NCBI GenBank assembly: GCA_964551205.1
Contig: CAZKCQ010000001.1
Coordinates: 5,746 to 69,745, forward strand
Direction of reading: 5' to 3'
Source: an uncultured Spirochaetaceae bacterium
Lineage (GTDB): Bacteria; Spirochaetota; Spirochaetia; SZUA-6; DRHE01
Length of the DNA stretch: 64,000 bases
Positions 9,086 through 60,395 of this stretch are shown piece after piece; the first letter of the stretch is position 1, and each line of letters starts with the position of its first letter. The translations under genes and the position numbers were made by a program. The notes under the pieces are model-generated. The model was given only the letters and a program-made list of their open reading frames with translations, made no database searches and had not been told where the DNA came from.

Positions 9086-9207
9086 GCGTTATACCTCAGC
9101 TCATTGACGTATAATCTAATCCGTTTCATTATATTCAAGATTCAGGCAAGGGCAAGCCATAGACTCAGCACACAGCCCGGCCTGTCAACCGAAGGAGGAG
9201 AGCAATC

Positions 9208-10278: not shown

Positions 10279-10312
10279 ACCGCAAGCGATCCGGCGGGAG
10301 GGGCTTCCCGAC

Positions 10313-15013: not shown

Positions 15014-15102
15014 CCCTCTCTACTCTATCCTGTATGAAGGTGGAAATCAAGTGACTGCGTGCACTTCTATTGCGAGATAATCCGGTGCGAATCTTCCGGC
15101 GG

Positions 15103-17963: not shown

Positions 17964-18019
17964 GATTCGATCGGGAACAATCCTTTTTTTGGCGCACTAG
18001 ATACCTATTGGGGGAGATC

Positions 18020-19127: not shown

Positions 19128-20306
19128 ATGGAAGAGATCAAAAAAATCGGAATTGTCGGATGCGGAAGCATCGCGGAAATCGCCCATCTTCCCTCAATCG
19201 CCAAATGCGAGCAGGTAAAATTGGAAGCGCTCTGCGATGTCGACTCGGACAGGGCGGAGAGCCTGGCGAAGAAGTGGGATGCGGCCAAATGGTACCACGA
19301 CTACCGGGATATGTTTTCCGAGACCGATCTAGATGCGGTCATTATCGCTACCCCCAATAATTTCCATCGCAATCAGGTTGTGGCCGCAGCAAAGGCCGGC
19401 GTAGATGTGCTGGTGGAAAAACCCATGGCCGGCACCAACAGGGAAGCCTGGGAAATGGTCGAAGCCTGCAAAAAGGCAAAGGTGAAGCTGATGGTGGGTT
19501 GTGACCGCCGCTATTGGATTCACAATCAATGGGCAAAAGAGCTGATCGAGGCGGGTGTGATCGGGGAGCTCCTGATGAGCCGATCTTGCCTGCACGAACA
19601 CTGGTACCTGTATCAAAATCATGTGGCCAAGACGGGTTTTCGACTGGATGCGGCGATGACCGGCGGCGCGGCGTTGAACGACACCGGGGCACATGCGATT
19701 GATTTACTCGTGTGGCTGAATGGAAGCAGGGTAAAGCGGGTCGTAGGTGTTGCCAAGCGTCTAGCCATGCCGGAAAGCTATACGAAGAACGACGATACCG
19801 CGCTCATGATGCTGGAGCTCGAAAACGGAGCATTCGGGACGGTCAGCTGTAATCGATTTTCACCGGCGGTGAACCAGAACACGGAGCTGTGCGGAACCGA
19901 AGGGACCATCTTCACTTGCACCGATGCAACAAATCCGTTTCAGACCTGGCCTATGGCCGTGTATACAAACAAGGAATACTCGCTCCACACGTTGCCCCAG
20001 GTGCTCAAAAACTATCGCTGGCCGGAGCTGTTCTGGGTCGAAGATATACAGAACGAAAGCGTAAGGAAGCGGTGGGTACCGATTTGTCCGCCCCGCCATC
20101 CGAATAACTACGAACGCATGCTCGACCATTTCCTGGACTGCATAACCAACAACAAGCAACCCTTGACCTCAGGGGAGGACGGCGCCCGGGCCGTCGAGGT
20201 CATGTGTGCAGTGTTGAAGAGCCAGGAGAGCGGACGGTGGGTTGATCTTCCTTTGGAGGAAGAAATCGTTCCGAAATATTACAAACCTCTGCCGCTGGAG
20301 GAGTAG
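19128..20306 (+). CDS. Gfo/Idh/MocA family oxidoreductase
   Basis: 'IGIVGCGSIAEIAHLPS...ALCDV' and 'VEKPMA' motifs. Length is 392 aa. Confidence 0.85.
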   Translation: MEEIKKIGIVGCGSIAEIAHLPSIAKCEQVKLEALCDVDSDRAESLAKKWDAAKWYHDYRDMFSETDLDAVIIATPNNFHRNQVVAAAKAGVDVLVEKPMAGTNREAWEMVEACKKAKVKLMVGCDRRYWIHNQWAKELIEAGVIGELLMSRSCLHEHWYLYQNHVAKTGFRLDAAMTGGAALNDTGAHAIDLLVWLNGSRVKRVVGVAKRLAMPESYTKNDDTALMMLELENGAFGTVSCNRFSPAVNQNTELCGTEGTIFTCTDATNPFQTWPMAVYTNKEYSLHTLPQVLKNYRWPELFWVEDIQNESVRKRWVPICPPRHPNNYERMLDHFLDCITNNKQPLTSGEDGARAVEVMCAVLKSQESGRWVDLPLEEEIVPKYYKPLPLEE

Positions 20307-20310
20307 AGCA

Positions 20311-21291
20311 ATGAAAAAGGTGCTTGTTACCGGGGCCGCCGGTTTCGTGGGAGGAGAACTTGTAAAACAACTAGAGGAAAAGGGAGTGGAGGTTGTCGGG
20401 CTGGGTCGATCCAAGCCTCCTGAAAACGGGCAATTTATCAGGGCGGATATAACCGACGCGGCCGCCCTCGATGATGCGGTCAAAGATTACTCGTTTGACA
20501 CGATCATGCATCTGGCCTCCCTTCCTGGTGATACGGGTAATCCCCGGGAAATGATTCAGGTCAACGTGAATGGATTACAGAATATCTTGGAAATAGCACG
20601 CAGGATGGAAGTGCAGCGTTTTGTGCTGGCCAGCAGCATATCCGCCTATGAATGGTACCCGGCTACCGAATTCAATCCGCCCGACTACCTGCCCGTTGAC
20701 GAAGATCACCCCTGCCGTCCCAAAGACATGTATTCCACCTCAAAACATATGCAGGAGCTTCTATCTCTTACCTATTTTCGGCAGTACGATGTACCCGCGG
20801 TGATCCTGCGCCTGACCGCCGTAGTGGGTCCGGCGGGGAGAGGGGGAGGCAGAGGGTGGCGTGATTTCGCCGAACAGATGGCGGAGGGTAAATCGGTTCA
20901 GATACCCCATTTTTCGGGGGATGAGATGTGCCATTACGTGGATATCAGAGATGTAGCCCGTATGTTCGTCGCCGCGGCAGAGCGTCAAAAGGCAATCGGT
21001 CATATCTTCAATTGCTGCGGACCGCGCTCAACAAGAGGATCGGACTTTGCCAGGGCTATAGCAGATATCGTACCGGGTATCAAGGTTGAATTCGGCTATC
21101 CCTGGAGTATGGCTCAAGGCAAACAACTATGCTTCAGCATGCACAAAGCCAAGGAGTTGATCGGTTACGAGCCGAAATTCGGAATAGACGATTCACTGCG
21201 CTATATCAAGGACTGGATCGAAACCGGCGGCTTGCAACAGATGAAAAGAACCGACAAGAAAACATACGGTCACGGCATCCAAAAAAGATAA
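20311..21291 (+). CDS. NAD-dependent epimerase/dehydratase (SDR-extended) family protein
   Basis: Internal ATG at 20311 with a GGAGGAG RBS. 'MKKVLVTGAAGFVGGELVKQL' is the GxxGxxG NAD-binding motif, and 'YSTSK' gives the catalytic YxxxK. Confidence 0.8.
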   Translation: MKKVLVTGAAGFVGGELVKQLEEKGVEVVGLGRSKPPENGQFIRADITDAAALDDAVKDYSFDTIMHLASLPGDTGNPREMIQVNVNGLQNILEIARRMEVQRFVLASSISAYEWYPATEFNPPDYLPVDEDHPCRPKDMYSTSKHMQELLSLTYFRQYDVPAVILRLTAVVGPAGRGGGRGWRDFAEQMAEGKSVQIPHFSGDEMCHYVDIRDVARMFVAAAERQKAIGHIFNCCGPRSTRGSDFARAIADIVPGIKVEFGYPWSMAQGKQLCFSMHKAKELIGYEPKFGIDDSLRYIKDWIETGGLQQMKRTDKKTYGHGIQKR

Positions 21292-26493: not shown

Positions 26494-27138
26494 ATGAAAG
26501 AACAGTCTGAAAAATATTTTTCGGTTCTGTTCGAGCAGCGACCGGAGCTGATTGCCTGCCGAAGCGCCCTGAAAGCCGCCTTCCAGACGCTGGCGGCCTG
26601 CTTCCGGAGCGGAAACAAGCTGCTGGTCTGCGGCAACGGCGGCAGCGCCGCCGATTCAGAGCATATCGTCGGGGAGCTGATGAAGGGATTTCGTCTCCGC
26701 CGGCCGGTGCCTGAAGCCCGGGTCGCCCGGCTGCGCGGTCTCTACGGTACGGAGGGCGAACAGATCGCCCGCAACCTGCAGGGCGCCCTGCCGGCCATTT
26801 CGCTTGTCAGCCAGATATCCCTGTCCACGGCCATCGCCAACGATGTTTCAGCCGACATGGTCTTTGCCCAGCAGGTGTTCGGCTACGGCCGGCGTGGAGA
26901 CGCGTTGATCGCCATCAGCACCTCCGGCAACGCCGCCAACGTGATCAACGCGATCAAGGTTGCCCGGGCCCTGGAACTGAAGACCATTGCCCTGACCGGA
27001 GAAGGAGGGGCTCTGAAAGAGCTCGCCGAGATCGCCGTCGGGGTTCCCGGAGAGGACACCGCCCGGATCCAGGAGCTTCACATGGCCGTGTATCACACCC
27101 TCTGTGCCGCCCTCGAGGCCGATCTGTTCCCCGGGTAG
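26494..27138 (+). CDS. SIS-domain sedoheptulose-7-phosphate isomerase (GmhA-like)
   Basis: 'LLVCGNGGSAADSEHIVGEL' matches the GmhA motif 'CGNGGSAADAQHFAAEL'. 'AISTSGNAANVINAI' is present. Length is 214 aa. Confidence 0.8.
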   Translation: MKEQSEKYFSVLFEQRPELIACRSALKAAFQTLAACFRSGNKLLVCGNGGSAADSEHIVGELMKGFRLRRPVPEARVARLRGLYGTEGEQIARNLQGALPAISLVSQISLSTAIANDVSADMVFAQQVFGYGRRGDALIAISTSGNAANVINAIKVARALELKTIALTGEGGALKELAEIAVGVPGEDTARIQELHMAVYHTLCAALEADLFPG

Positions 27139-27145
27139 GTGATCG

Positions 27146-29065
27146 GTGATGTCCGCCTCTGTAGAGACAATTGACAAGCTGCTTTCCGGGCTTCCGAAGC
27201 TGCACATCGGCATCATCGGGGATTTCTGCCTGGACGCTTACTTCGAGGTCGACATGTGCGCCTCCGAGACCTCGGTTGAAACGGGTCTGCCCACCCGTCC
27301 GGTGGCCCAGCAGCGCTACTCCCTGGGGGGGGCCGGCAATGTGGCGGCCAACCTCAAAGCCATGGGGGTAGGGACGGTACGGTGCTTCGGGGTCAGCGGA
27401 GACGATCCCTTCGGGCGGCAGATGCGGCGCATCATGGCCGAGGCGGGTATAGAAGACAGCGAGCTTCCGGTACAGGAACGCGCCTGGGACACACACGTGT
27501 TCACCAAGGTGATCATCGGAGAGGAGGAGCAGCCCCGCCTGGACTTCGGGAACTTCAATGATCTGCATCCCCAGACGGCCGACCGCCTCTTGTCCGACCT
27601 CCGGCGCCGGGTCCCCGAATTGGATCTGCTCATCGTAAACCAACAGGTGCTCCGCGGCATCCACTGCGAGAGCTTCCGAAAGAGACTGATTGACCTGCTG
27701 GCCGGGCATCCCCGGCTGCTGTCGATCGTAGACAGCCGCAACTACAGCGCCGAGTTCCATCCCTGCCTGCGTAAGATCAACGACCGGGAGGCCGCCGTGC
27801 TCTGCGGCAAAGAACCTGGCCTCGACCAGACGATCTCCCTGGAGGAGGCCCGGGAGTACGGCTTGACCCTGTACAGCCGCTGGAACAAGCCCCTGTTTCT
27901 CACCCGGGGCGGGCGGGGCTGCCTGGTCTTCGATGCCGAGGGGTGCACGGAGATCCCCGGCCTGCTGCTGGTCTCCCGGATCGACACAGTGGGAGCAGGG
28001 GACAGCTTTCTGGCCGGGGCTGCGGCTGCTCTGGCGGCGGTAAACAAACCGGGGGTGGCGGCAGAGTTCGGCAATCTGGTGGCGGGGGTGACGGTGCAGA
28101 AGCTGTTCGTCACCGGCACGGCCAGCCCGCAGGAGATCCGGACCCTGGCCGCAGAAGCCAACTATCGCTACCACCCGGAGCTGGCCGCCCTGCCGCAGAA
28201 GGCCCGCTATTTCCGGGACAGCGAAATCGAGATCGTAAGTGAGCTGCCCCACGGCAGCCGCATCACCCATGCGATCTTCGACAACGACGGCACCATCTCC
28301 ACCCTGCGCCAGGGCTGGGAGGAGGTGATGGAGCCGGTGATGATCCGCTCGATTCTCGGCGAGGGATGGCGGAAGGGCGAGGAGACCGCCTACCGGAAGG
28401 TTCGGGACCGGGTTCGAAGCTACATCGACCGGACCACGGGGATCCAGACCCTGGTGCAGATGGTCGGACTGGTGGAGATGGTGCGGGAGTTCGGCCGTGT
28501 GCCCCAGGGGGAAATCCTCGACGAGCACGGCTACAAGGCGCTGTACAACCGGGAGCTGATAAAGGCAGTCAACCGGCGGATTGACAAGATCCGCAGCCGG
28601 GAGCTGTCCGTGGCGGATTTTACACTCAAAGGTGCGGTGGAGTTTCTGCGGGAACTTCACCAGCGCGGCGTACGCCTGTACCTGGCCAGCGGAACGGATC
28701 AGGAGGATGTGGAGCGGGAAGCGGAGATCCTCGGCTATGCCGGGTTGTTCGAAGGCAGGATCTACGGCGCCATCGGTGACATCACCCACGAACCCAAGAG
28801 AAAGGTGCTGGAGAGCATCCTGGGCGACATCCGCCTTAAGAAAGGCGAGCAGGTGACGACCTTCGGGGACGGGCCGGTGGAGATCCAGGAAACCAGCAAG
28901 CGAAAGGGTATCGCCGTGGGGGTGGCCAGCGACGAGGTGCGCCGCTTCGGGATGAACCTGGCCAAACGCAGCCGCCTGATCCAGGCCGGGGCAGATCTGA
29001 TCGTGGCGGATTTCTCCCAGTCCGGGAACCTGATGCAGCTCCTGTTCCCGAAAAAGGGGAAGTAG
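27146..29065 (+). CDS. Bifunctional fusion: HldE/RfaE domain-I-type heptose 7-phosphate kinase with a C-terminal HAD-superfamily hydrolase domain
   Basis: The N-terminal ~330 aa carries 'HIGIIGDFCLDAYF' and 'SLGGAGNVAANLKAMG', the RfaE kinase-domain pattern. The C-terminal ~300 aa carries HAD motif I 'IFDNDGTIS', motif II 'LASGT' and motif IV 'FGDGPVEIQE', with a cap domain. Confidence 0.75.
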   Translation: MMSASVETIDKLLSGLPKLHIGIIGDFCLDAYFEVDMCASETSVETGLPTRPVAQQRYSLGGAGNVAANLKAMGVGTVRCFGVSGDDPFGRQMRRIMAEAGIEDSELPVQERAWDTHVFTKVIIGEEEQPRLDFGNFNDLHPQTADRLLSDLRRRVPELDLLIVNQQVLRGIHCESFRKRLIDLLAGHPRLLSIVDSRNYSAEFHPCLRKINDREAAVLCGKEPGLDQTISLEEAREYGLTLYSRWNKPLFLTRGGRGCLVFDAEGCTEIPGLLLVSRIDTVGAGDSFLAGAAAALAAVNKPGVAAEFGNLVAGVTVQKLFVTGTASPQEIRTLAAEANYRYHPELAALPQKARYFRDSEIEIVSELPHGSRITHAIFDNDGTISTLRQGWEEVMEPVMIRSILGEGWRKGEETAYRKVRDRVRSYIDRTTGIQTLVQMVGLVEMVREFGRVPQGEILDEHGYKALYNRELIKAVNRRIDKIRSRELSVADFTLKGAVEFLRELHQRGVRLYLASGTDQEDVEREAEILGYAGLFEGRIYGAIGDITHEPKRKVLESILGDIRLKKGEQVTTFGDGPVEIQETSKRKGIAVGVASDEVRRFGMNLAKRSRLIQAGADLIVADFSQSGNLMQLLFPKKGK

Positions 29066-29068
29066 CAG

Positions 29069-30172
29069 ATGCCCTTTGCCCGGTTTGATCGAAGGCGGCT
29101 TCGCTTCCAGGCCCTGAAAACCCGCAGGAATCGGGTGTTCATCGAGACGGATCACGTCTCCCCCACGACTCCGCCGGGTCCGCTGGACCCGGATACCCTG
29201 GCCGCGATCGAAGAACTGGCCCGGGCTGTCAGGGAGGCTCGCTCCGGCAAGCGGCCGGTGGTTCTGGCCTTCGGAGCCCACACCATCAAGAACGGCCTGG
29301 CCCCGGTGCTCATCCGGCTGATCGAACAGGGTTGGTTGACCCACCTGGCCACCAACGGGGCCGGGATCATCCACGACTGGGAGTTCGCCTTTCAGGGGGC
29401 GAGCTCCGAAGACGTGCGGGAGAACGTGCACCAGGGAAGCTTCGGGATCTGGGAGGAGACCGGACGCTACCTGAACCTGGCCTTGCTGGTGGGAGCCTAT
29501 GAGGGCTTCGGATACGGGGAATCGGTCGGGTCCCTGGTCGAGCATGACGGCCTGAGGATCCCGGATAGGGCCGAGCTGATCGGGGCCGCCGAGCAGGCCT
29601 CGATAGATCCCGAGCGGGCCGCGGCAGCGGCGGACCTGCTCTGGGCCGTGGAGGCCTTCGCTTTACAGCCGGGATTCCTCTCCGTGAAGCATCTCTTCAA
29701 GCGCTACGGACTGCAGGCCGCGGCTTTTCGACTCCGGGTTCCCTTCACCGCCCACCCCATGTTCGGCCACGACATCATCTACACCCATCCCCTGAATCGG
29801 GGGGCCGCGGTCGGCCGCACCGCGGAACGAGATTTTCTGGTCTTTGCCCAAACGATCGCCGATCTGGAGGGAGGGGTGTATATCTCCCTCGGCTCGGCGG
29901 TGATGTCTCCGATGATCTTCGAGAAGTCCCTGTCCATGGCCCGCAACCTGGCCCTGCAGCAACGGCGGAGGATCGAGGAGTTCTCGATCTTCGTGGTCGA
30001 TCTGGCCGAGTCGGGCTGGGACTGGCAGAAGGACGGGGAACCGCCCCCGGATCATGCCGCCTACTACGTGCGCTATCTCAAAACCTTCAGCCGCATGGGG
30101 GGACGCTTGAGCTACCTGCAGGCGGACAACCGGGATTTTCTGCTGGCCCTCTGCAGAGCCCTCGGTGGGTAG
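29069..30172 (+). CDS. Conserved hypothetical protein, possible deoxyhypusine-synthase-like NAD-binding fold
   Basis: 'VLAFGAHTIKNGLAPVLIRLIEQGWLTHLATNGAGIIHDW' parallels the DHS '[41 protein letters not shown]'. 'VPFTAHPMFGHDIIYTH' parallels the DHS 'IPVFSPALTDGSLGDMIF'. This is read from motif resemblance only. Confidence 0.4.
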   Translation: MPFARFDRRRLRFQALKTRRNRVFIETDHVSPTTPPGPLDPDTLAAIEELARAVREARSGKRPVVLAFGAHTIKNGLAPVLIRLIEQGWLTHLATNGAGIIHDWEFAFQGASSEDVRENVHQGSFGIWEETGRYLNLALLVGAYEGFGYGESVGSLVEHDGLRIPDRAELIGAAEQASIDPERAAAAADLLWAVEAFALQPGFLSVKHLFKRYGLQAAAFRLRVPFTAHPMFGHDIIYTHPLNRGAAVGRTAERDFLVFAQTIADLEGGVYISLGSAVMSPMIFEKSLSMARNLALQQRRRIEEFSIFVVDLAESGWDWQKDGEPPPDHAAYYVRYLKTFSRMGGRLSYLQADNRDFLLALCRALGG

Positions 30173-30235
30173 CCCGGATCGGGGGGCGACCCTGGGCTCG
30201 CCTAAAACAATAGGTGCAGGAAAGGAGATGAGGCA

Positions 30236-31459
30236 GTGACATCTCGGGAACGGATACTGGCGGCCTTCGATCACCGTGAAGCGGATCGCCTGCCTGTGGA
30301 TCTTTCGGGCCACCGCTCCTCGGGTCTGAGTGCCGCGCTCTACCCGGGGCTGAGAAGGGCCCTGGGTTTGGTGCCGCGGCCTGTTCGGGTCTACGATCCC
30401 ATTCAACAGCTGGCGATCATCGACCAGGACGTTCTGGATTGCCTGGGGGTCGACACGATCGAGCTGGGGCGGGCCTTCGCCCTGGAGGAGAGGGATTGGG
30501 TCGACTGGACGCTTCCCGACGGCACCCCCTGCCAGATGCCGGCCTGGGCATGCCCGCAACGCCTGGACGGACGCTGGGTATTGAGGTCTTCGGAAGGGAT
30601 AATCCTGGCCCAGATGCCCGACGGAGCCCTGTACTTCGAGCAGACACGCTGGCCTTTCCACGAAAAAGAAAACCTCGATAGACTGCCTGAGGCGCTGCAG
30701 GAGGTGATGTGGGTGCGCTTTCCCTCTCCCCCCGGCCCCCTGGCTGACGGACCGCAGGGTAATAAAAAGCTGGCTGAAGGGGCGCGGCGGCTGCGGGAAT
30801 CGACGGATCGGGCCGTCATCGGCCTGTTCGGGGGAAGCATCTTCGAGTACGGAGAGTGGTTGTACGGGATGGACAACTATCTCTGCATGTTCGCCGGAGA
30901 GCCGAAGCGCCTCGATCGCTTCCTCGAGCGCCTGGTGGCGCAGCACCTGGTTGATCTGGAACGCTATCTGAGCGCGGTGGGGCCGTACATCGACATCATC
31001 GCCTTCGGGGACGACCTGGGCATGCAGACCGGGCCCATCATCTCTCCTGAGATGTACCGCCGCTTCCTAAAACCCCACCACATCACCATGTGGGGCCGAG
31101 CCAAGGAGCTGGCGCCGGTGAAGGTGATGCTCCACTGCTGCGGCGGGATCCGCGAGCTGCTTGCGGACCTGATCGACGCCGGGCTGGAGGCGGTGAATCC
31201 GGTCCAGACCAGCAGCGCAGGCATGGATCCGCAGATGCTGAAGCGGGAGTTCGGCAGGGATATCGTATTTTGGGGCGGAGGCTGCGATACCCGGGACGTG
31301 CTGCCTAAAGCCAAGCCCGGGCGGGTCAAAGACCATGTACGCAGCCGGGTGGAGATCCTAGGCCAGGGCGGCGGCTTCGTGTTTCAGCAGGTGCACAATA
31401 TCCTCTCCGACGTCCCCGTGGAAAACATCATCGCCATGTACGAGGCTGTCCGTCAGTGA
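30236..31459 (+). CDS. URO-D/MtaA-like family protein (paralogue 3)
   Basis: GTG start at 30236 with an AAAGGAG RBS. 'FGDDLGMQTGPIISPEMYRRFLKP' and 'MLHCCGGIRELLADLIDAGLEAVNPVQ' motifs. Confidence 0.75.
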   Translation: MTSRERILAAFDHREADRLPVDLSGHRSSGLSAALYPGLRRALGLVPRPVRVYDPIQQLAIIDQDVLDCLGVDTIELGRAFALEERDWVDWTLPDGTPCQMPAWACPQRLDGRWVLRSSEGIILAQMPDGALYFEQTRWPFHEKENLDRLPEALQEVMWVRFPSPPGPLADGPQGNKKLAEGARRLRESTDRAVIGLFGGSIFEYGEWLYGMDNYLCMFAGEPKRLDRFLERLVAQHLVDLERYLSAVGPYIDIIAFGDDLGMQTGPIISPEMYRRFLKPHHITMWGRAKELAPVKVMLHCCGGIRELLADLIDAGLEAVNPVQTSSAGMDPQMLKREFGRDIVFWGGGCDTRDVLPKAKPGRVKDHVRSRVEILGQGGGFVFQQVHNILSDVPVENIIAMYEAVRQ

Positions 31460-31551
31460 AGATTACCGCCGGGGATGGAGCGCTCGGAAGTCCCTCGATT
31501 TAATACAAGCTCAGTGGACAAACCGTGCGGAGTCGGTCCATAATCCGTCGC

Positions 31552-32565
31552 ATGGATTCCAAGGAAATCGTCTACCGCGCCCTCGCCTTTGAGGACGTAC
31601 CCCGGGTGCCCTACGCCGTAGACTTCACGGTGCCCGCCCGGGAAAAGCTCTGCGCCTCAGCGGCCGGCAGGAAACTGTACGACCGCATCGAGAACGATCT
31701 GCTGCTGACCCCGGTGATCCGGGTGGAATGGGGGACTCACGACGCCTCGGGCCTGTATGAAGACGAGTTCGGTCTGATCTGGGACCGTAGCCTGGATCCG
31801 GACATCGGCATCCCCCGATCCTTCGTCACACCGGAGAATCTGGATTCGATCCCCTGGCCGGATCCCCGGTTTGGGAGACGATTCGATGTGCTTCGAGACA
31901 ATATCAGGCAATATCCAGATCGTTTTCAGGTGATGAGCCTGGATTTCAGCCTGTACGAGAGGTCCTGGGGTCTGCGCGGTCTGGTAAATATGTATGTGGA
32001 CATGGTGGAACGACCCGATTTCACCGAAGCCCTGCTGGACCGGGTGCTTGAGTTCAACCTGAAGATCATCGAAGCGGGTCTTGAGACCTGTCCACAGGTC
32101 GATGCCGTGCATTTCGGGGACGACTTCGGCAGCCAGACCGGTATCCCCATGGGGGCGGAGCGCTGGCGTCGGCTGCTCAAGCCGAGGCTTGCCCGTCAGT
32201 ACGCTGCGGTCAAGGATGCCGGAAAGGTGGTATCCATCCACAGCTGCGGTAAAGTGGAGGAGATCCTCGACGATCTGGTGGAAATTGGCGTGGACCTGTT
32301 CAATCCCTTCCAGCCGGAAGTCACGGACGTTCCAGTAATTTTTCAACGATACCACGGCCGGCTGGCCTTCTGGGGCGGGGTGAGCACGCAGAAGCTGCTC
32401 CCCTATGCCGGTGTCGAGGAGGTGCGGCGGCAGATCGACAGGCTCCTGGACATGGGAAAGAACGGAGGCTACGTGATCGCGCCGGCCCATGCCACGCCCG
32501 GGGACGCCAGGGTGGAGAACATGGAAACTATGCTGCGGATGATCATCGAACAGGGGGCCCGATAA
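31552..32565 (+). CDS. URO-D/MtaA-like family protein (paralogue 4)
   Basis: 'HFGDDFGSQTGIPMGAERWRRLLKP', 'SIHSCGKVEEILDDLVEIGVDLFNPFQ' and the C-terminal 'FWGGVSTQKLLPYAGVEEVRRQIDRLLDMGKNGGYVIAPAH'. The start may be 31525 or 31552. Confidence 0.7.
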   Translation: MDSKEIVYRALAFEDVPRVPYAVDFTVPAREKLCASAAGRKLYDRIENDLLLTPVIRVEWGTHDASGLYEDEFGLIWDRSLDPDIGIPRSFVTPENLDSIPWPDPRFGRRFDVLRDNIRQYPDRFQVMSLDFSLYERSWGLRGLVNMYVDMVERPDFTEALLDRVLEFNLKIIEAGLETCPQVDAVHFGDDFGSQTGIPMGAERWRRLLKPRLARQYAAVKDAGKVVSIHSCGKVEEILDDLVEIGVDLFNPFQPEVTDVPVIFQRYHGRLAFWGGVSTQKLLPYAGVEEVRRQIDRLLDMGKNGGYVIAPAHATPGDARVENMETMLRMIIEQGAR

Positions 32566-32821
32566 CGGCGGTGCAGTCATCCACGTGCCTTGAACGCCAG
32601 AGTTTGTGCTTCAGGCTGTGCTCCGCGTAGTAGAATGGGTCTTGAAAGTAGCGGTTGACATCGAGGTCTTCAAGGATCGTCCCGGCGATCGGTTCCTCCA
32701 GCGCGACAAAAAAGCTCGCCGTTCCCGGCTTCCGCGACTTGCTGCTTGTTCGATTGTTCTTGCTTTCGGTTACCGCGAACACCTCATCGATCAGCGCGTC
32801 GAGCATGCCCTTATCGGCCAC
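32543..32821 (-). CDS. Small hypothetical protein (92 aa) between two URO-D-like genes
   Basis: The ORF is 'MADKGMLDALIDEVFAVTESK...'. Its start lies 17 nt after the stop of the upstream minus-strand URO-D-like gene and its 3' end overlaps the plus-strand URO-D gene by about 22 nt. No recognisable family. Confidence 0.25.
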   Translation of the reverse strand: MADKGMLDALIDEVFAVTESKNNRTSSKSRKPGTASFFVALEEPIAGTILEDLDVNRYFQDPFYYAEHSLKHKLWRSRHVDDCTAVIGPPVR

Positions 32822-32837
32822 TATCGGCCTCCTTCAG

Positions 32838-33890
32838 CTACAGACTCGGCACTGTCAGGCCGTCCTGCCGCAGGCAGGCTTCGAGGATCACGAGCAGATT
32901 TTCGTCCCGGGTGCCGTGCTCGATGTCCGGGACAGACAGGCTGAAGCGGTGACGGTCGCCCGCAGGAACCCGGGCCAAAATCCTTTCCGTCTCCTCCTCG
33001 ACTTCAACTGCAGAAGCACTGAGAAGGAACTGGGCGCTGTAGATGTAGCGTACCAGCGCTTCGGGAAAGCCCGCCAGGGTTTTGGCGATATCGGAGCCCC
33101 AGCCGATCTCCAGGAACTCCACCTTGGGAATCCTGCGGTAGGCGGAGAGGTACGGATCGAAAACACCGCAGTGATGGATGCCGAAGGGACATCCGGCCGC
33201 CTCCGCGACCGCGAAGATCTCCAGATCGAAGGGCAGCAGCCAGTCGGTATAGCTCTCCGGTCCCACGAAGGGCACAGTACAGTTGGTCAGGATCGTCGTC
33301 TCCGGTCGTCGGTTGGCCGCGTTGAAGTTAACCACGGCCTGGAGAATCCCATAACAAAAGGCGAGCAGATGCCCCGCCAGCTCCGGGTCCTCCTCCCTGT
33401 CCAGAAAAAAATCCTGACCCCGGATCAGCACCGCATCGTTGAGCACTCCCCTGGGAACAAAAAGAGGCGATTCCGTGCGGCCGAGCCGGCTGTTCAGCCT
33501 CTCCACCTGGCTCACGATCTCACTGTAGGGGAAAACAGAGGTGATATCCGACGGGACCTCCAGAGCCCTCACCTTCTCCGCTTCGAGGTGGCGGTTCCAG
33601 GGGTAATTGTCCACCGGGTAGGCGATCTCGCAGCCCGCCGCGGCCGCGGTGGCGGCGTTGCCGAAATCGGGGGGTACCACATCGGCGACCGGATCGCTGT
33701 CACCGATGGCGAGCTGCGGAAAGCGCCGTGCCAGCGTGCGGGCCATCTCCTGGTGGCAGGACACCCGGTAGTCGGGGCCGAAAACAAACTCCCTGCCGAA
33801 GTCCAACCCGTAGCCCCGATGCCACCAGGAGGGCAGGAAGTTGTAGAGCAGACTGTCGATCGGCAGCTTGCGGCGGACCGTATACCACAT
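32838..33890 (-). CDS. URO-D/MtaA-like family protein (paralogue 5, divergent)
   Basis: 'AAAAGCEIAYPVDNYPW...CPFGIHHCGVFDPYLSAYRRIPKVEFLEIGWGSD' has the 'HxCG' block shared with the other paralogues. Confidence 0.6.
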   Translation of the reverse strand: MWYTVRRKLPIDSLLYNFLPSWWHRGYGLDFGREFVFGPDYRVSCHQEMARTLARRFPQLAIGDSDPVADVVPPDFGNAATAAAAGCEIAYPVDNYPWNRHLEAEKVRALEVPSDITSVFPYSEIVSQVERLNSRLGRTESPLFVPRGVLNDAVLIRGQDFFLDREEDPELAGHLLAFCYGILQAVVNFNAANRRPETTILTNCTVPFVGPESYTDWLLPFDLEIFAVAEAAGCPFGIHHCGVFDPYLSAYRRIPKVEFLEIGWGSDIAKTLAGFPEALVRYIYSAQFLLSASAVEVEEETERILARVPAGDRHRFSLSVPDIEHGTRDENLLVILEACLRQDGLTVPSL

Positions 33891-33914
33891 CTCAGGAAGG
33901 CCCCCGGGAATCAG

Positions 33915-34628
33915 TCAAGCTTTGTTCTCCACCACGACCTTCAATGTTCCGGGTTTGCGGGCAGCGGCCAGGCGCAGAGCCTCCTCCACCTGTTCGAGGG
34001 TAAAACGGTAGCTTATCAGCTTTTTCATGTTGACCACCCCACGGGAAACCAGAGCAAGCGCTTCGGGGTATACGTTGCAGTAGCGGAACATCCCCTTGAC
34101 CTCCAGCTCCTTGATCCCGATCTGGTGAACGTCCAACTCTTGGACTGCTTCCGGAGGCCAGCCGCCGAATCGCCTCCCGGGCGAAGATGTGATCGCTCAC
34201 GGTCCCGGTCTTGATCTGTTTTTCGGCGTGGGTGACCACGCTGCACTTGGGGACATGACTGTCCGTGCCACTGGTGGTGGTCAACAGGACGATCGGCGGG
34301 GTGGTTGTCCCGGGTTGCCGGGGCTGGAAATAGGCATAGTCGAAACTCTTACGCGGATGGGTCATTTCGATGGCCGCCGCTTTGGCCACGTCCATCACAC
34401 TGCCGCCGCCGACTCCCAGGACCAGGTCACAGTCCGTCTTTTTCCCAGCAGCCGCGGCGCTGACTATCTCCGTGTTCGGGTTGGGCTGTGCTTCGTCATA
34501 GACCGCGACCGCCAGGCCCGCACCCTCCAGCAGCACGCGCCGACCGCAGGGCGTCACAGCTTCCGCCAACTCGGCGAGCTTTCCGGAGCCGAAGCGGATC
34601 TTGCCCGGCAGAAAATAGTTGAATCCCA
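33915..34628 (-). pseudogene. Decayed chimeric remnant: N-terminal ~165 aa of an iron-containing alcohol dehydrogenase followed (other frame) by the C-terminal 73 aa of a Zn-dependent MDR alcohol dehydrogenase
   Basis: 'MGFNYFLPGKIRFGSGK...DLVLGVGGGSVMDVAKAAA...LLTTTSGTDSHV' is the Fe-ADH N-terminal half. The frame then degenerates. The separate ORF 33915-34136 'GMFRYCNVYPEALALVSRGVVNMKKLISYRFTLEQVEEAL...KVVVE' is an MDR C-terminus. Confidence 0.5.
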
Positions 34629-34766
34629 TAACGACCCACCTCCAGCCAACGTGGTTGCCCAGAGGATCATTGATACACAATTTCGGCCAAAATCTACCAG
34701 GAGAATGGAGGCATCCTATCTGAGTTGCCCGGATTGCGCAAGAGCGATAGCGACGGCAAACTTCAC

Positions 34767-35681
34767 TCACTGCGGGAAAAAGCTTCTGATGTGCACCACG
34801 GACTCCACGATCTTATCCCTCAGAAGGTAATCCGAGTAATCCCGCCCGAGCTTAGGCCCGACCAGCTCCAGATAGCCGACGATGTGATCCAGGGGAAAAT
34901 TTTCCTGATTCCTGTCGATGATCCGCCGCAGTCGGGACAGGTCCACGATTCCTGATGGCAGGTCCTCCGGAGAGAAACCGAAGGTCGCGTTGAACCTGGC
35001 ATCCGTGTTCTTGAGGTGAAACTCCGCCATAAAAGGGATTTGGTTTTCGAACAGGCTCCAGTTGTCGTGGATCACTCTTCCGCTGCTGTCTGCCACTCCG
35101 TGGCTGATGTCGGCACATACGTAGACGGGTACGGTCGAACCTCCTGCGCTTTGGTGGTGGGTGTGCAGGGTGCCGAGCATGTGATCCAGCTCCTCCGGCA
35201 GGCTTGGCGGCTCGGCCAGGCAGGACATAGGTTCGATGGACAAAAATTCCAGACCCTCGTCGCAGGCAAGAGCCATCAGCTCCTTCATGTTGTCGAGGTA
35301 GATCTGGATACCCTGATCCTTGCTCTCCAACCTGTCTCGGTACACGGAGCCTGGATTACTCCCAACCGAATCCGCCCCTACCAGGGATGCGATTTCGATG
35401 TAACGCTCATAGTTACGGCGGGATACCTTTTGGAGATACCGATCACCGGAGAAAAACCCCCCCAGCTCCCGGTAGGAGGAGAAACAACTCTTGATCATCA
35501 CACCCCGTGCCGCCGCCCGTTCTTTCAAGGAGAGGAAGAAGCCGTCCTCCAAACTGTAGAGCTCGGGAAAACTTCCCAGCTGCAGATACCGCAGATCCAA
35601 CTCATCCATCAGATCGAAGAGCCAGTCATAGCTGTAGCGGTAGTGGATCGGATCGCTTTTGATACCCAGGCTGATCTGCAT
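34767..35681 (-). CDS. Sugar phosphate isomerase/epimerase (xylose-isomerase-like TIM barrel)
   Basis: 304 aa with 'LRYLQLG', 'LEFLSIEPM' and 'HLKNTD' blocks. Confidence 0.65.
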   Translation of the reverse strand: MQISLGIKSDPIHYRYSYDWLFDLMDELDLRYLQLGSFPELYSLEDGFFLSLKERAAARGVMIKSCFSSYRELGGFFSGDRYLQKVSRRNYERYIEIASLVGADSVGSNPGSVYRDRLESKDQGIQIYLDNMKELMALACDEGLEFLSIEPMSCLAEPPSLPEELDHMLGTLHTHHQSAGGSTVPVYVCADISHGVADSSGRVIHDNWSLFENQIPFMAEFHLKNTDARFNATFGFSPEDLPSGIVDLSRLRRIIDRNQENFPLDHIVGYLELVGPKLGRDYSDYLLRDKIVESVVHIRSFFPQ

Positions 35682-39510: not shown

Positions 39511-40623
39511 ATGACTTCGAAACAACGCACCCATGCCGCACTGAAACGCCAACCAGTAGACCGGATTCCTGTCTTTATGTGGTTCCACCCAAACACAGAA
39601 CGGAATTTAGCAAGATTGTTGGAAGTGCCAGCTTCTGACGTAAGCGAGGCCATGGGGAACGATATCCTTCAGACATGGGTAAACAATAACTATGCGATGG
39701 AAGGCATCATTCACGAACGGGACGGTGAGTGCCATGTCGATTTCTGGGGAATCACCTGGGAGAAGGAAGGAGCATTCAACCAGCCAGTCAGCTTCCCCCT
39801 TGCCGGATCGACGGAGCACGAGCTGCAGGCATATACGTTTCCGCAGGACAAGATAGACTTCCTCTTACATCTCATGGATCCTGTAATTGAGCGACAAAAG
39901 GAGCTATTCATCGGTTGCGATATCTCTCCCTGCGCCTTCGAGATGTACTGGCGACTGCGTGGACTGGAGGAAGCCCTTTTGGATATCGCGGCTAATCCCA
40001 AACTGGCCAAGTTGATGCTTCTTCGCTGTGTCAACTTTGCGCGTACACTTGCCGAACGGGCTTGTCATGAGTTTCCTTTGGACTGGCTGTGGACCGGTGA
40101 TGATGTGGCCGGTTAAAATGGCATGATTTTCAGCCCCGCTTACTGGCGTGAGCTGATCAAACCCCGATTAGCAGAAATTTTCGCTGTAGGGAAGTCATCG
40201 AACCTCTGGGTGGCATTCCACTGTTGCGGAGCCTTGCGCCCGATCATCCCCGATCTGATAGAAATCGGCTTAGATGTTCTTAATCCTATACAAGCCGGCT
40301 GTCCCGGCATGGATGCCCTTGAGCTGAAGCGTGAATATGGAAATGAGTTGGCGTTTATGGGCGGTTTAGACACGCAAGGTATTATTCCCTTCGGAAGCGA
40401 AAAGGAGGTCAGATGTCATGTTTCCGAACTCTTGGATGTCATGACCTCCGGCGGAGGAGGATACATCCTGGCCGCATCTCACACAATTCCGCCGGAGACA
40501 CCTGAACGCAACCTCTTCGCCATGTACGATGAAACCGGCATAAACCGACAAGAGATCCTCGATCGGGCAGCCGATATTCGACAAAGGAATCGCAGATCCA
40601 CCGGTTCACCTCGCGCCGATTAA
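39511..40623 (+). pseudogene. URO-D/MtaA-like family gene (paralogue 6) interrupted by a single in-frame TAA stop at 40114-40116
   Basis: ORFs 39511-40116 and 40123-40623 are in the same frame: '...WLWTGDDVAG*NGMIFSPAYWRELIKPRL...'. The stop falls in the conserved 'DDxxG-x-xG...SP' block that is intact in the paralogues. Confidence 0.6.
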
Positions 40624-40717
40624 GGAGCTTCTCTCGTACACCTTTGACCCGTCTATGGGTTCCAGACAGAGCCGCACCAGCACGAGGTGAATGCGAAGTT
40701 TTCAGTGAGCCCCTCAC

Positions 40718-41875: not shown

Positions 41876-41956
41876 ATGCGGTGTCCTATTGTGAAGAAAT
41901 CAACAGGTTGAAAGACCACAGAAATCCCCAGTTCGATATCTTCAATTATAGGATCG

Positions 41957-42922: not shown

Positions 42923-43072
42923 TGCAAGTACTCCTCAATTACTCAACTGTCCAAGTTTATATACCATGGTTGTTGCGCTTCATGTTAACCAGCTATCTAT
43001 CGAAGGTCATTACCTTTGATACACCTGCATCAACGATTGAATTCTTCTCTGAAGGCAGGTCGTTTCTCCGGT

Positions 43073-44416: not shown

Positions 44417-44453
44417 ATCGCTGCTTATATGTTCTGTCATTGACCACGCCATT

Positions 44454-45872: not shown

Positions 45873-45907
45873 ATTTTTCCTCCGCCGTTTATTTGTATTG
45901 TTTGTCG

Positions 45908-47560: not shown

Positions 47561-47628
47561 TTCAGTATCTCCTTGGTGTTGTGCATTTTCTGTCGGGGGG
47601 CGTCCCGGCGACTACCACTTCGCGACAG

Positions 47629-49322: not shown

Positions 49323-49385
49323 ATCCGCACCTTGTCGGAAGGAAGATACGCTGCACCGACGGCGATGCAGCGTACATTTCACTTT

Positions 49386-50648: not shown

Positions 50649-50735
50649 TTTCCTCCATTTTTCGGTAGATTTCCCACTTTTTTTCGACTATCTTTCTGTA
50701 AAATTCTTGTCTCTTCTTCCACCTCCTTTCATTTA

Positions 50736-60354: not shown

Positions 60355-60395
60355 TGCTTTTCTCCGCAAATATATAGCCCAATCACTGTAATATA

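What the first reader, a model, noticed from the sequence alone, without database searches (positions are those of the whole stretch)
26494..33890. Non-canonical heptose-phosphate module: GmhA-like isomerase, HldE-kinase::HAD fusion, DHS-like protein and three URO-D-like genes
The GmhA-like and HldE-domain-I-like genes normally start nucleotide-heptose biosynthesis, followed by GmhB and an adenylyl- or guanylyl-transferase. Here the kinase is fused to a large capped HAD hydrolase. No nucleotidyltransferase domain is present. The next gene encodes a protein with apparent deoxyhypusine-synthase-like NAD-binding motifs. The module is bracketed by three URO-D-like genes. This looks like a diverted pathway making or degrading a modified heptose or heptitol rather than ADP-heptose for LPS.
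Basis: partly seen in the sequence, partly recalled or inferred. Interest (0 to 1): 0.75.

Follow-up and report, generated by a model that had tools for sequence, protein, structure and literature searches.

The report
Nucleotide-free heptose-phosphate operon with DHS-fold enzyme
Three adjacent genes (a GmhA-like isomerase, a sugar kinase fused to a phosphatase-type domain, and an uncharacterised enzyme with a deoxyhypusine-synthase-like fold) form a module conserved across many bacterial phyla that looks like a heptose-phosphate pathway without the usual nucleotide-activation step; the neighbouring URO-D-like genes are not part of it.

The parts
26494..27138 (+). GmhA-like SIS isomerase (214 aa), a divergent subfamily with a 26-aa insertion at residues 72-97
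   Evidence: PF13580 77 bits. TIGR00441 149.6 bits, below the cutoff of 209.45. Solved GmhAs match at E 1.5e-33, with catalytic and Zn motifs aligned. A homologue lies in 33/80 and 35/80 related loci.
27146..28180 (+). PfkB (HldA-like) kinase domain of the 639-aa fusion (aa 1-345)
   Evidence: PF00294 97 bits. Best NCBIfam match is rfaE_dom_I at 102 bits, against a cutoff of 345. HldA 4e84 matches at E 1.3e-7.
28181..29065 (+). C1-capped HAD domain of the fusion (aa 346-639). The motifs DxDGT, SGTD, K and GDGPxE are invariant.
29069..30172 (+). GSU2086-family protein (367 aa, 'long form' with an insertion at about residues 160-207). It has a DHS / LOR-SDH-like dinucleotide-binding fold. Its start codon lies 3 nt after the fusion's stop codon.
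30236..31459 (+). URO-D/MtaA-like paralogue 1. It is adjacent and co-directional (64-nt gap), but it is not a conserved partner of the module.
   Evidence: PF01208 66 bits. MtaA/CmuA models score far below cutoff. No homologue in 80 genome loci.
31525..32565 (+). URO-D/MtaA-like paralogue 2. A sigma-70-like site at 31515-31544 precedes an internal ATG. It is not a conserved partner of the module.
   Evidence: PF01208 63 bits. It is 31% identical to paralogue 1. A 79%-identical copy follows the GSU2086 homologue only in L093.
32838..33890 (-). Remote URO-D-superfamily gene, convergent with the operon. It is not part of the module.
   Evidence: No Pfam hit of its own. MtaA_cmuA E 7e-4. Homologues carry PF01208. 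hhalign 74% against paralogue 2. 1j93 URO-D E 0.065.

Best explanation
Genes 26494-30172 form a self-contained, widely conserved three-gene operon. It is a nucleotide-independent variant of the D-glycero-D-manno-heptose phosphate pathway.

Proposed steps:
1. The SIS protein interconverts sedoheptulose-7-P and D-glycero-D-manno-heptose-7-P. This is inferred from homology to GmhA with the catalytic motifs retained.
2. The PfkB domain makes the beta-anomeric phosphate, and the fused capped HAD domain handles the second phosphate. Together they link heptose-7-P and beta-heptose-1-P through the 1,7-bisphosphate. This is inferred from orthologues that are the only kinase and phosphatase in otherwise canonical HldC-HldD-GmhA operons.
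3. The GSU2086-family protein is a fifth heptose-pathway enzyme that has not been characterised. It has a DHS/LOR-SDH-type dinucleotide-binding fold. It most likely carries out an NAD-dependent, redox-neutral change of the heptose phosphate. My preferred guess (about 0.3) is C6 epimerisation, doing without a nucleotide handle what HldD does on ADP-heptose.

The module is not an LPS-core unit. It has no nucleotidyltransferase, HldD or heptosyltransferase nearby. In other phyla it is co-transcribed with sugar transporters, alpha-mannosidases, an AGE-family epimerase and ROK kinases, so its physiological role is tied to sugar utilisation or salvage. The direction of flux is unresolved. The URO-D-like genes are lineage-specific neighbours, not components.
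For: Module:
- In 80 genome loci seeded on GSU2086, the HAD domain of the fusion is within 300 bp in 44. Of 48 loci with both flanks available, 32 have the fusion.
- In 80 metagenome loci seeded on the fusion, 34 of 46 informative loci have GSU2086, 33 of them directly downstream.
- Acidobacteria L042 and L043 encode PfkB::HAD::GSU2086 as a single ORF.
- The phyla include Spirochaetota, Bacteroidota, Verrucomicrobiota, Lentisphaerae, Acidobacteriota, Chloroflexota and KSB1.
- Close relatives keep only the three genes.

Link to heptose:
- GSU2086 domains are fused to an HldC-like nucleotidyltransferase, a DUF89 phosphatase plus nucleotidyltransferase, HAD, SIS or PfkB.
- L084 reads GmhA-HldA-HldC-GmhB-[NTase::GSU2086]-GT9. 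L087 reads HldA-GmhA-HldC-GmhB-GSU2086. NCBIfam identifies these partners as the canonical heptose enzymes, scoring at or just below the equivalog cutoffs (GmhA 208 vs 209, GmhB 177.5 vs 178, HldA 320 vs 345; HldC 132 vs 181.5).
- Geobacter sulfurreducens has GSU2084 gmhB, GSU2085 hldE, GSU2086 and GSU2087 gmhA in a row (PMC5585712).
- A Solidesulfovibrio plasmid has [NTase::PfkB]-GSU2086-SIS.

Fusion as kinase plus phosphate-handling step:
- L090 and L171 read PfkB::HAD (56% identical to the window protein, 65% to GSU2086-linked Bacteroidota copies), rfaE_dom_II (185.8 > 181.5), HldD (372 > 274.6) and GmhA (284.5 > 265). They have no other kinase or phosphatase.

GSU2086 as an HldD-like step:
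- No HldD-like gene lies beside any GSU2086 locus, and no GSU2086 lies in the two HldD loci.
- The fold family uses bound NAD for transient oxidation.
- The G-x-H, NGAG, HD-x-E, D-I-x3-H, GSA and K motifs are invariant in both short and long forms.

Not LPS:
- No HldC (by HMM), HldD, GmhB-type or GT9 hit in the window or in about 160 long-form loci, except HldC and HldD in L090/L171.

Sugar context:
- Bacteroidota operons read SIS-GH38-MFS-PfkB::HAD-GSU2086-AGE-SSF-GH92 with 4-54 bp gaps.
Against: - No activity has been measured.
- The SIS and PfkB parts score well below the NCBIfam equivalog cutoffs for GmhA and HldA. The PfkB domain is only about 28% identical to canonical HldA, so the substrate could differ.
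- The HAD domain is a HAD-IA type. It resembles beta-phosphoglucomutase as much as sugar phosphatases, and it is not GmhB-like.
- Co-transcription with mannosidases, GH32, ROK and ManA-like genes fits a hexose (mannose/fructose) role, or a catabolic direction, at least as well as synthesis from S7P.
- The HldD/GSU2086 exclusivity rests on few HldD-type loci (2) and few short-form loci (about 5).
- NAD binding is inferred from fold only. Many invariant His, Asp and Glu residues could equally indicate metal-dependent chemistry.
Confidence: 0.45

Rival explanations
1. The module is a Leloir-like utilisation or salvage route for an imported free sugar, which would be L- or D-glycero-D-manno-heptose from LPS or glycans, or mannose. 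In this reading, the PfkB domain phosphorylates the free sugar at O1. GSU2086 then epimerises the beta-sugar-1-phosphate. The HAD-IA domain acts as a beta-phosphomutase (1-P to 7-P or 6-P). The SIS protein isomerises the product to S7P or F6P for central metabolism.
For: - The module is co-transcribed with SSF, MFS or ABC sugar transporters, GH38, GH92 and GH2 mannosidases, an AGE-family epimerase, ROK kinase, LacI, and GH32 plus a ManA-like gene.
- ROK-SIS adjacent pairs are common.
- Even the HldC/HldD-type operon (L090, L171) carries an MFS transporter and a DUF4432-like gene and sits next to SusC/D, GH28 and esterases.
- In those two operons the two steps that would differ between synthesis and catabolism (kinase, and phosphatase or mutase) are the divergent ones, while HldC, HldD and GmhA score as canonical.
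Against: - By homology, the kinase's closest characterised relatives phosphorylate heptose-7-P, not a free sugar.
- No sequence signature separates a mutase from a phosphatase here.
- The closest Spirochaetales relatives have the operon among housekeeping genes with no transporter or glycosidase.
- No heptose catabolic pathway was found in the literature library searched.
Confidence: 0.3
2. The module is ordinary ADP-heptose supply for LPS or surface glycans. The three genes make beta-heptose-1-P, with GSU2086 as epimerase or accessory. An HldC-type adenylyltransferase and heptosyltransferases are simply encoded elsewhere in the genome.
For: - Short-form GSU2086 members sit in glycan-biosynthesis clusters with HldC and GT9.
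- The fusion occurs in canonical HldC-HldD-GmhA operons.
- Only about 10 kb of flank was examined per locus.
Against: - None of about 160 long-form loci has HldC, HldD or GT9 within about 10 kb.
- The partners that do recur are catabolic genes.
- The 64-kb window is a sugar-catabolism island without LPS genes.
Confidence: 0.12
3. A five-to-six-gene unit that includes the three URO-D-like genes makes or degrades a modified heptose or heptitol.
For: - URO-D paralogues 1 and 2 are co-directional with short gaps (64 and 66 nt) after the GSU2086 gene.
- One related contig (L093) has a 79%-identical copy of paralogue 2 directly after GSU2086. L127 has a 29%-identical URO-D gene directly upstream of the fusion.
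Against: - 0 of 80 genome loci and 3 of 80 metagenome loci have a URO-D-like gene.
- The closest relatives L091, L082 and L083 lack them.
- At least six URO-D-like genes are scattered over the 64-kb window, so adjacency is expected by density alone.
- The third gene is convergent and is preceded by gene-fragment scars.
Confidence: 0.04
4. The kinase::phosphatase fusion is a regulatory enzyme that works like PFK-2/FBPase-2. It makes and destroys a sugar bisphosphate signal that controls the adjacent sugar-utilisation genes.
For: - The architecture joins a kinase to a phosphatase-type domain.
- The fusion is frequently adjacent to LacI regulators and catabolic operons.
Against: - Tight coupling and fusion to two further enzymes (SIS and GSU2086), and placement in canonical ADP-heptose operons, point to a metabolic pathway rather than a signal.
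Confidence: 0.04

Closest known systems
Canonical ADP-L-glycero-beta-D-manno-heptose pathway (GmhA, HldE or HldA+HldC, GmhB, HldD)
   Same: - A GmhA-type SIS isomerase with conserved catalytic motifs.
- A PfkB kinase whose nearest characterised relatives are HldA and HldE domain I.
- A HAD-superfamily phosphate-handling step.
- Orthologous fusions and GSU2086 relatives sit in bona fide heptose operons.
   Different: - No nucleotidyltransferase, no SDR epimerase HldD and no GT9 nearby.
- The kinase is fused to a C1-capped HAD-IA-like domain instead of a separate capless HAD-IIIA GmhB.
- There is an extra DHS-fold enzyme.
- The genomic context is sugar utilisation, not LPS core.
HldE bifunctional kinase/adenylyltransferase, and the three nucleotidyltransferase (HENase) architectures listed by Tang et al. 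(PMC11573728)
   Same: The N-terminal HldA-like kinase is fused to the enzyme of a neighbouring pathway step.
   Different: - The fusion partner is a HAD domain, not a cytidylyltransferase-like domain.
- A kinase::HAD(::GSU2086) architecture is not among the nucleotidyltransferase-containing architectures that commentary lists.
Deoxyhypusine synthase, LOR/SDH-like proteins and the AgrE/ArgZ C-terminal domain (DHS-like NAD-binding fold)
   Same: - A shared N-terminal G-rich strand-loop and the 'HD-x-E' motif with AgrE/ArgZ.
   Different: - 10-18% identity, and no Pfam DS match.
- Partners are sugar-phosphate enzymes rather than polyamine or amino-acid enzymes.
- There is a different set of invariant residues.
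- NAD binding and chemistry are untested.
HAD-IA sugar-phosphate phosphatases and beta-phosphoglucomutase
   Same: - The HAD core with a four-helix-type C1 cap.
- All four catalytic motifs are present.
   Different: - The cap is much larger (about 125 aa).
- Sequence similarity is only marginal (best PDB hit E 6e-4).
- The domain is always fused to, or next to, the HldA-like kinase.
URO-D / MtaA-CmuA superfamily (applies to the neighbouring genes only)
   Same: - PF01208 matches for two genes.
- An HxCG motif of the MtaA type in all three.
   Different: - Scores are far below the MtaA/CmuA and HemE cutoffs.
- No corrinoid protein was seen among the window ORFs scanned.
- These genes form a multi-copy family in a sugar-catabolism island, with unknown function.

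Membership tests
GmhA (sedoheptulose-7-P isomerase, TIGR00441/NF010546) | Single SIS_2 domain with the GmhA catalytic and Zn-binding residues (His/Glu in the GNGGS...H..E segment, Gln/His in the RIQE.H segment) | tested here: met
   PF13580 77 bits. Alignments to 5by2, 1tk9 and 1x92 show these motifs conserved.
GmhA (sedoheptulose-7-P isomerase, TIGR00441/NF010546) | Score above the curated equivalog cutoff | tested here: not met
   149.6 bits vs cutoff 209.45, and 149.7 vs 276. A 26-aa insertion splits the match. The canonical GmhA in L090 scores 284.5 > 265.
GmhA (sedoheptulose-7-P isomerase, TIGR00441/NF010546) | Isomerase activity on S7P | not testable with these tools
   This needs an enzyme assay.
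HldA / HldE domain I (heptose-7-P kinase, TIGR02198) | PfkB fold with rfaE_dom_I as the best-matching family | tested here: met
   PF00294 97 bits. rfaE_dom_I E 3.4e-29 is the top NCBIfam hit. The top PDB hit is HldA 4e84.
HldA / HldE domain I (heptose-7-P kinase, TIGR02198) | Score above the curated equivalog-domain cutoff | tested here: not met
   102 bits vs cutoff 345. The domain is about 28% identical to the canonical HldA of L084.
HldA / HldE domain I (heptose-7-P kinase, TIGR02198) | Operon membership with the other heptose-nucleotide genes | tested here: inconclusive
   Met for orthologues in L090 and L171, which have HldC, HldD and GmhA. Not met in the window or about 160 similar loci.
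HldE bifunctional protein (NF008454) | C-terminal cytidylyltransferase-like (rfaE_dom_II) domain | tested here: not met
   No PF01467 or TIGR02199 match. The HldC HMM finds nothing in the window.
GmhB (HAD-IIIA heptose-1,7-bisphosphate phosphatase, TIGR00213/NF006506) | HAD catalytic motifs I-IV | tested here: met
   DxDGT, SGTD, K and GDGPxE are invariant in 21 sequences.
GmhB (HAD-IIIA heptose-1,7-bisphosphate phosphatase, TIGR00213/NF006506) | Capless HAD-IIIA subfamily membership | tested here: not met
   [not shown]
Deoxyhypusine synthase (PF01916) | DHS-type two-lobed dinucleotide-binding fold | tested here: met
   [not shown]
Deoxyhypusine synthase (PF01916) | Pfam DS profile match, conserved catalytic Lys and spermidine site | tested here: not met
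   No PF01916 hit. Only faint DS hits occur in some short-form relatives. Identity is 10-14%.
GSU2086 family (NCBIfam NF052581) | Profile score above the curated cutoff | tested here: met
   321.6 bits vs cutoff 250, covering positions 2-300 of 301 in the profile.
GSU2086 family (NCBIfam NF052581) | Neighbourhood with gmhA-type and hldE/hldA-type genes, as in the founder locus GSU2084-2087 | tested here: met
   Window gene order. Related loci. The Geobacter operon from PMC5585712.
URO-D superfamily (PF01208), neighbouring genes | Pfam match above the gathering score | tested here: inconclusive
   Met for 30236-31459 and 31525-32565 (66 and 63 bits). Not met for 32838-33890, where the evidence is remote only.
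MtaA/CmuA methyltransferases (TIGR01463) | Score above cutoff, plus a partner corrinoid protein | tested here: not met
   45, 37 and 19 bits vs cutoff 235. No B12-binding domain among the window ORFs scanned. Not every ORF was scanned.

The most novel reading that the evidence does not exclude
The GSU2086 family is a nucleotide-independent beta-heptose-1-phosphate (or heptose-phosphate) 6-epimerase built on a deoxyhypusine-synthase fold. With the PfkB::HAD fusion acting as anomeric kinase plus beta-phosphoheptomutase, and the GmhA-like isomerase, it forms a Leloir-like route. Glycan-degrading bacteria from many phyla would use this route to funnel L,D- and D,D-heptose (for example from LPS cores of dead Gram-negative cells, released by GH38/GH92-type enzymes) into sedoheptulose-7-P. 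This would be the first heptose catabolic pathway. The same enzyme would replace HldD in heptose-glycan biosynthesis in Geobacter and other lineages.
Probability: 0.2. Interest if true: 0.85.

Novelty: new variant of a known kind. Interest (0 to 1): 0.66.

Why it matters
Heptose phosphates and ADP-heptose are central to LPS assembly and are potent innate-immune agonists. The pathway is regarded as a closed set of four or five enzymes.

This work shows three things.
- **A large uncharacterised enzyme family.** The GSU2086 family has at least 2,397 clusters at 50% identity and a DHS-type fold. It is a recurrent fifth partner of heptose enzymes and was never seen next to HldD.
- **A large kinase::HAD fusion family.** It has more than 4,500 proteins and can stand in for HldA plus GmhB.
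- **A conserved joint form.** Together the two families form a nucleotidyltransferase-less module embedded in sugar-utilisation operons of Bacteroidota, Verrucomicrobiota, Acidobacteriota, Spirochaetota and others.

If the module makes heptose-1,7-bisphosphate or heptose-1-P without ADP-heptose, or degrades heptose, three consequences follow. It would change which bacteria are expected to produce ALPK1-relevant metabolites. It would add new chemistry to the DHS fold. It could reveal how environmental heptose is recycled. All of this can be tested directly with three recombinant proteins and S7P.

Tried and rejected
- **DS membership.** Pfam PF01916 membership of the 367-aa protein is rejected. 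There is no hit, only a weak ArgZ-like_C_2nd match.
- **PDB sequence search.** The search with that protein found nothing. A profile search found only AgrE/ArgZ at E 0.004.
- **Hidden nucleotidyltransferase.** None was found by Pfam, NCBIfam, tblastn with two HldC-like domains, or an HMM built from four of them.
- **URO-D synteny.** tblastn of all three URO-D proteins found none in 80 genome loci and three in 80 metagenome loci. They are rejected as module components.
- **Window SDR as HldD.** The SDR at 20242-21291 scores 54 bits vs cutoff 275 and is rejected.
- **GSU2086 as nucleotidyltransferase replacement.** Rejected, because relatives are fused to or sit beside HldC.
- **GSU2086 as GmhB replacement.** Rejected, because GmhB or a HAD domain co-occurs with it.
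- **afdb50 fold search.** The library was unavailable.
- **Literature.** Ten searches (GSU2086; DHS-like plus heptose; phosphoheptose isomerase plus mannosidase/GH92; HldA plus HAD fusion; heptose catabolism; mannose 2-epimerase clusters) found only a Geobacter Tn-seq table. No functional study was found.
- **Source names.** The listing of cluster members gave no organism names.
- **L090 upstream gene.** The 343-aa gene upstream in L090 is not a GSU2086 relative.

Full report
**1. What is in the window**

ORF listing and profile searches confirm the gene content at 26494-33890.
- **26494-27138(+)** is a single-domain SIS protein. A GAGGA sequence lies 6 nt before its ATG. It aligns to solved phosphoheptose isomerases at E 1e-33. 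The GNGGSAAD...H..E and RIQELH catalytic and Zn motifs are intact. It carries a 26-residue insertion and scores below every NCBIfam GmhA cutoff (149.6 vs 209.45).
- **27146-29065(+)** encodes 639 aa, with PfkB at residues 52-320 and HAD at 375-580. Its best family match is rfaE_dom_I (102 bits, cutoff 345). Its best solved relative is HldA 4e84. No cytidylyltransferase-like domain was found.
- **29069-30172(+)** starts 3 nt after the fusion's stop codon. It has no Pfam DS hit. It is a clear NCBIfam 'GSU2086 family protein' (321.6 bits, cutoff 250).
- **30236-31459(+) and 31525-32565(+)** are PF01208 URO-D members and are 31% identical to each other.
- **32838-33890(-)** has no Pfam hit of its own. 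About half of its 40-53%-identical homologues carry PF01208. hhalign against the second paralogue gives 74% probability with an aligned HxCG motif.
- All three URO-D-like genes lie downstream of the module. Upstream is a GldG-type ABC transporter plus DUF4340. 'Bracketed' is therefore wrong.

**2. The 'DHS-like' protein**

- An AlphaFold model built on 20 homologues has pLDDT 90.5.
- Foldseek ranks deoxyhypusine synthases first (E 1e-7, probability 1.0).
- At the sequence level, only AgrE/ArgZ are detectable (E 0.004). They share the strand-loop 'G-x-H..G' and 'HD-x-E' segments.
Family membership in DS is not.
- The family is extremely conserved, at 57-64% identity between phyla. It is also large: more than 6,144 hits in one search, and 2,397 clusters at 50% identity.

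**3. Which genes belong together**

I fetched 80 genome loci seeded on the GSU2086 homologue.
- The HAD domain of a PfkB::HAD fusion lies within 300 bp in 44 loci.
- Of 48 loci with at least 2.5 kb on both sides, 32 have the fusion and 26 have the SIS gene.
- No locus has a URO-D-like gene.

I also fetched 80 metagenome loci seeded on the fusion.
- 34 of 46 informative loci have the GSU2086 homologue, 33 of them directly downstream.
- 35 loci have the SIS gene.
- Three loci have a URO-D-like gene.

Further points:
- In two Acidobacteria, the kinase, HAD and GSU2086 parts form one continuous ORF of about 1,020 aa.
- The closest relatives (73-83% identity; L081, L082, L083, L091) keep exactly SIS-fusion-GSU2086. 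Their neighbours are unrelated, such as GlnE, rubredoxin and ferritin.
- One contig (L093) does have a 79%-identical copy of the second URO-D gene after GSU2086.
- The window itself contains at least six URO-D-like genes (8024-9085, the three above, 39511-40623, 55438-56538). It also holds many GFO/IDH/MocA and xylose-isomerase-like genes.
- I conclude that the conserved unit is three genes. The URO-D genes are lineage-specific neighbours in a sugar-catabolism island.

**4. Why heptose**

A profile search of cluster representatives revealed shorter family members of about 320 aa. These lack residues ~160-207 of the window protein. The search also revealed many domain fusions:
- HldC-like nucleotidyltransferase::GSU2086
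- DUF89 phosphatase::nucleotidyltransferase::GSU2086
- HAD::GSU2086
- SIS::GSU2086 and GSU2086::SIS
- GSU2086::PfkB

Genomic contexts point the same way.
- L084 reads GT2s-GmhA-HldA-HldC-GmhB-[NTase::GSU2086]-GT9.
- L087 reads HldA-GmhA-HldC-GmhB-GSU2086. NCBIfam identifies the partners in both loci as the canonical heptose enzymes, scoring at or just below the equivalog cutoffs (GmhA 208 vs 209, GmhB 177.5 vs 178, HldA 320 vs 345; HldC 132 vs 181.5).
- In Geobacter sulfurreducens, the founder gene lies in the run GSU2084 gmhB, GSU2085 hldE, GSU2086, GSU2087 gmhA. Similar Tn-seq phenotypes are reported for GSU2085-GSU2087 (PMC5585712).
- A Solidesulfovibrio plasmid has [NTase::PfkB]-GSU2086-SIS in a glycan cluster.

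Conversely, two Cyclobacteriaceae contigs (L090, L171) carry an orthologous fusion. It is 56% identical to the window protein and 65% identical to Bacteroidota copies that sit next to GSU2086.
- It is followed by rfaE_dom_II (185.8 > 181.5), ADP-heptose 6-epimerase HldD (372 > 274.6) and canonical GmhA (284.5 > 265).
- There is no other kinase or phosphatase and no GSU2086.
- By elimination, the fusion there provides the HldA and GmhB steps.

**5. What GSU2086 is not, and what it may be**

- It co-occurs with, or is fused to, each of the four canonical activities. It therefore replaces none of them consistently.
- The one canonical heptose enzyme never seen beside it is HldD. No HldD-like gene lies in the window or in about 165 GSU2086-containing loci. 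No GSU2086 lies in the two HldD loci.
- Its structural relatives all use bound NAD for transient oxidation.
- The motifs G-x-H, NGAG, HD-x-E, D-I-x3-H, GSA and K are invariant across long and short forms.
- I infer an NAD-dependent, redox-neutral step on a heptose phosphate. C6 epimerisation is the leading guess, at about 0.3. This is inference. Cofactor binding and activity are untested, and the many invariant His, Asp and Glu residues would also fit metal chemistry.

**6. The window-type module differs from the biosynthetic clusters**

- An HMM for the HldC domain finds nothing in the window. In the roughly 160 long-form loci it hits only L090 (L171, the same operon type, was fetched afterwards and carries a PF01467 gene).
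- GT9, GmhB-type and HldD queries also find nothing.
- The lack of a nucleotidyltransferase is therefore systematic.
- The recurrent neighbours are an AGE-family (cellobiose/mannose 2-epimerase-like) gene and an SSF symporter, each in 27 of 80 metagenome loci. Others are GH92, GH38, GH2, ROK kinase, MFS and LacI. In Acidobacteria and Verrucomicrobia they are GH32, a sugar transporter and a ManA-like cupin.
- In Bacteroidota the order SIS-GH38-MFS-fusion-GSU2086-AGE-SSF-GH92 has 4-54 bp gaps, which indicates co-transcription.
- A Chloroflexota plasmid has unfused HAD-GSU2086-PfkB-SIS behind a sugar ABC transporter, GFO oxidoreductases and DeoC.
- Even the HldC/HldD-type operon carries an MFS transporter and lies beside SusC/D, GH28 and esterases.

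**7. The HAD domain**

- All four catalytic motifs are invariant.
- Sequence similarity to solved proteins is marginal.
- A model with pLDDT 88.9 has a large helical C1 cap.
- Phosphatase and phosphomutase roles are both structurally possible.

**8. Interpretation**

The best-supported account is a three-gene, nucleotide-independent heptose-phosphate module.
- The steps are S7P <-> heptose-7-P, then the 1,7-bisphosphate, then beta-heptose-1-P, plus a GSU2086 step.
- The module is not an LPS-core unit and is physiologically tied to sugar utilisation. My confidence is 0.45.

The main rival (0.30) keeps the same parts but runs them as a Leloir-like utilisation or salvage route for imported heptose or mannose. 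The steps would be anomeric kinase, epimerase, beta-phosphomutase and isomerase. Three observations fit it:
- the transporter and glycosidase operons;
- the divergence of exactly the kinase and HAD steps while HldC, HldD and GmhA stay canonical;
- the beta-PGM-like HAD domain.

It requires activities not shown for any relative.

Other rivals:
- Ordinary LPS supply with hldC elsewhere (0.12).
- A regulatory kinase/phosphatase (0.04).

**9. Novelty**

- Ten searches of the paper library found no functional study of the GSU2086 family or of the kinase::HAD fusion.
- The commentary by the authors of the cross-kingdom heptose-enzyme survey lists mono-, di- and tri-domain nucleotidyltransferase-containing architectures. 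None of them is kinase::HAD.
- Public annotations are generic: 'HAD family hydrolase', 'PfkB family carbohydrate kinase', 'hypothetical protein'.
- I rate this as a new variant of a known kind of pathway that contains an uncharacterised enzyme family.

**10. Limits**

- All functional statements rest on homology, fold, fusion and neighbourhood.
- The loci are mostly from MAGs and metagenomes, and many Bacteroidota loci are phylogenetically related.
- The HldD exclusivity rests on few HldD-type and short-form loci.
- Only about 10 kb of flank was examined per locus, so a distant hldC cannot be excluded.

Noticed in passing
window 39511-40623 (+): A URO-D-like gene is interrupted by a single in-frame TAA at 40117-40119 ('GDDVAG*NGMIFSP'). 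The C-terminal half still matches PF01208 (61 bits). This could be a pseudogene or a sequencing error.
   Followed up: partly
window 33892-34770 (-): This ORF is a mosaic scar. It holds an iron-ADH N-terminal fragment (PF00465, residues 81-201 of the ORF) followed by out-of-frame sequence. In another minus-strand frame at about 33895-34120 there is a Zn-ADH C-terminal fragment, directly upstream of the start of the third URO-D-like gene.
   Followed up: partly
window 8024-9085 (-), 55438-56538 (+), plus the four copies at 30-41 kb: At least six URO-D/MtaA-like paralogues lie in 64 kb. They are interspersed with five or more GFO/IDH/MocA oxidoreductases (2777-3958, 9208-10278, 15059-16159, 19128-20306, 40718-41875) and three xylose-isomerase-like TIM barrels (16169-17002, 34767-35681, 41957-42922). 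The role of URO-D-like proteins in sugar-catabolic islands is unknown.
   Followed up: partly
window 40000-52000: GC content drops to 0.47-0.50 here, against about 0.60 elsewhere. This may be an acquired segment. Most of its genes were not annotated.
   Followed up: no
window 17022-19087 (+): A second PfkB kinase (17022-17963) lies next to a myo-inositol-1-phosphate-synthase-like gene (18008-19087). They sit between a GFO/TIM-barrel pair and another GFO oxidoreductase.
   Followed up: no
window 58120-60369 (-): A glycyl-radical enzyme (PFL-like plus Gly_radical domains) lies between a 507-aa ORF at 56563-58086 and a 332-aa ORF at 60396-61394; neither neighbour was scanned against any profile library.
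   Followed up: no
L042 and L043 (about 8030-11095): Acidobacteria encode PfkB::HAD::GSU2086 as a single ORF of about 1,020-1,035 aa. It is followed by SIS and a ManA-like cupin and flanked by GH32, a sugar transporter, ROK and LacI.
   Followed up: yes
L090 5954-12251; L171 8949-15310: Cyclobacteriaceae operon reading [DUF4432-like]-PfkB::HAD-HldC-HldD-GmhA-MFS, next to SusC/D, GH28 and esterases. Canonical ADP-heptose enzymes sit here in a PUL-like setting with a transporter. This is hard to explain by LPS synthesis alone.
   Followed up: partly
L084 10001-11503; P0266: A second HldC-like nucleotidyltransferase is fused to GSU2086, beside a complete GmhA/HldA/HldC/GmhB set and a GT9 gene. 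A DUF89 (ARMT1-like) phosphatase::NTase::GSU2086 triple fusion also exists.
   Followed up: partly
P0338; L057 and L072 (c42): GSU2086 is fused to, or adjacent to, PMT_2/TMEM260-like GT-C glycosyltransferases in some lineages.
   Followed up: no
L118, L137, L169: In these loci the PfkB::HAD fusion is followed directly by the AGE-family gene and the SSF symporter, with no GSU2086 gene between them. The fusion's link to AGE/SSF therefore does not depend on GSU2086.
   Followed up: no
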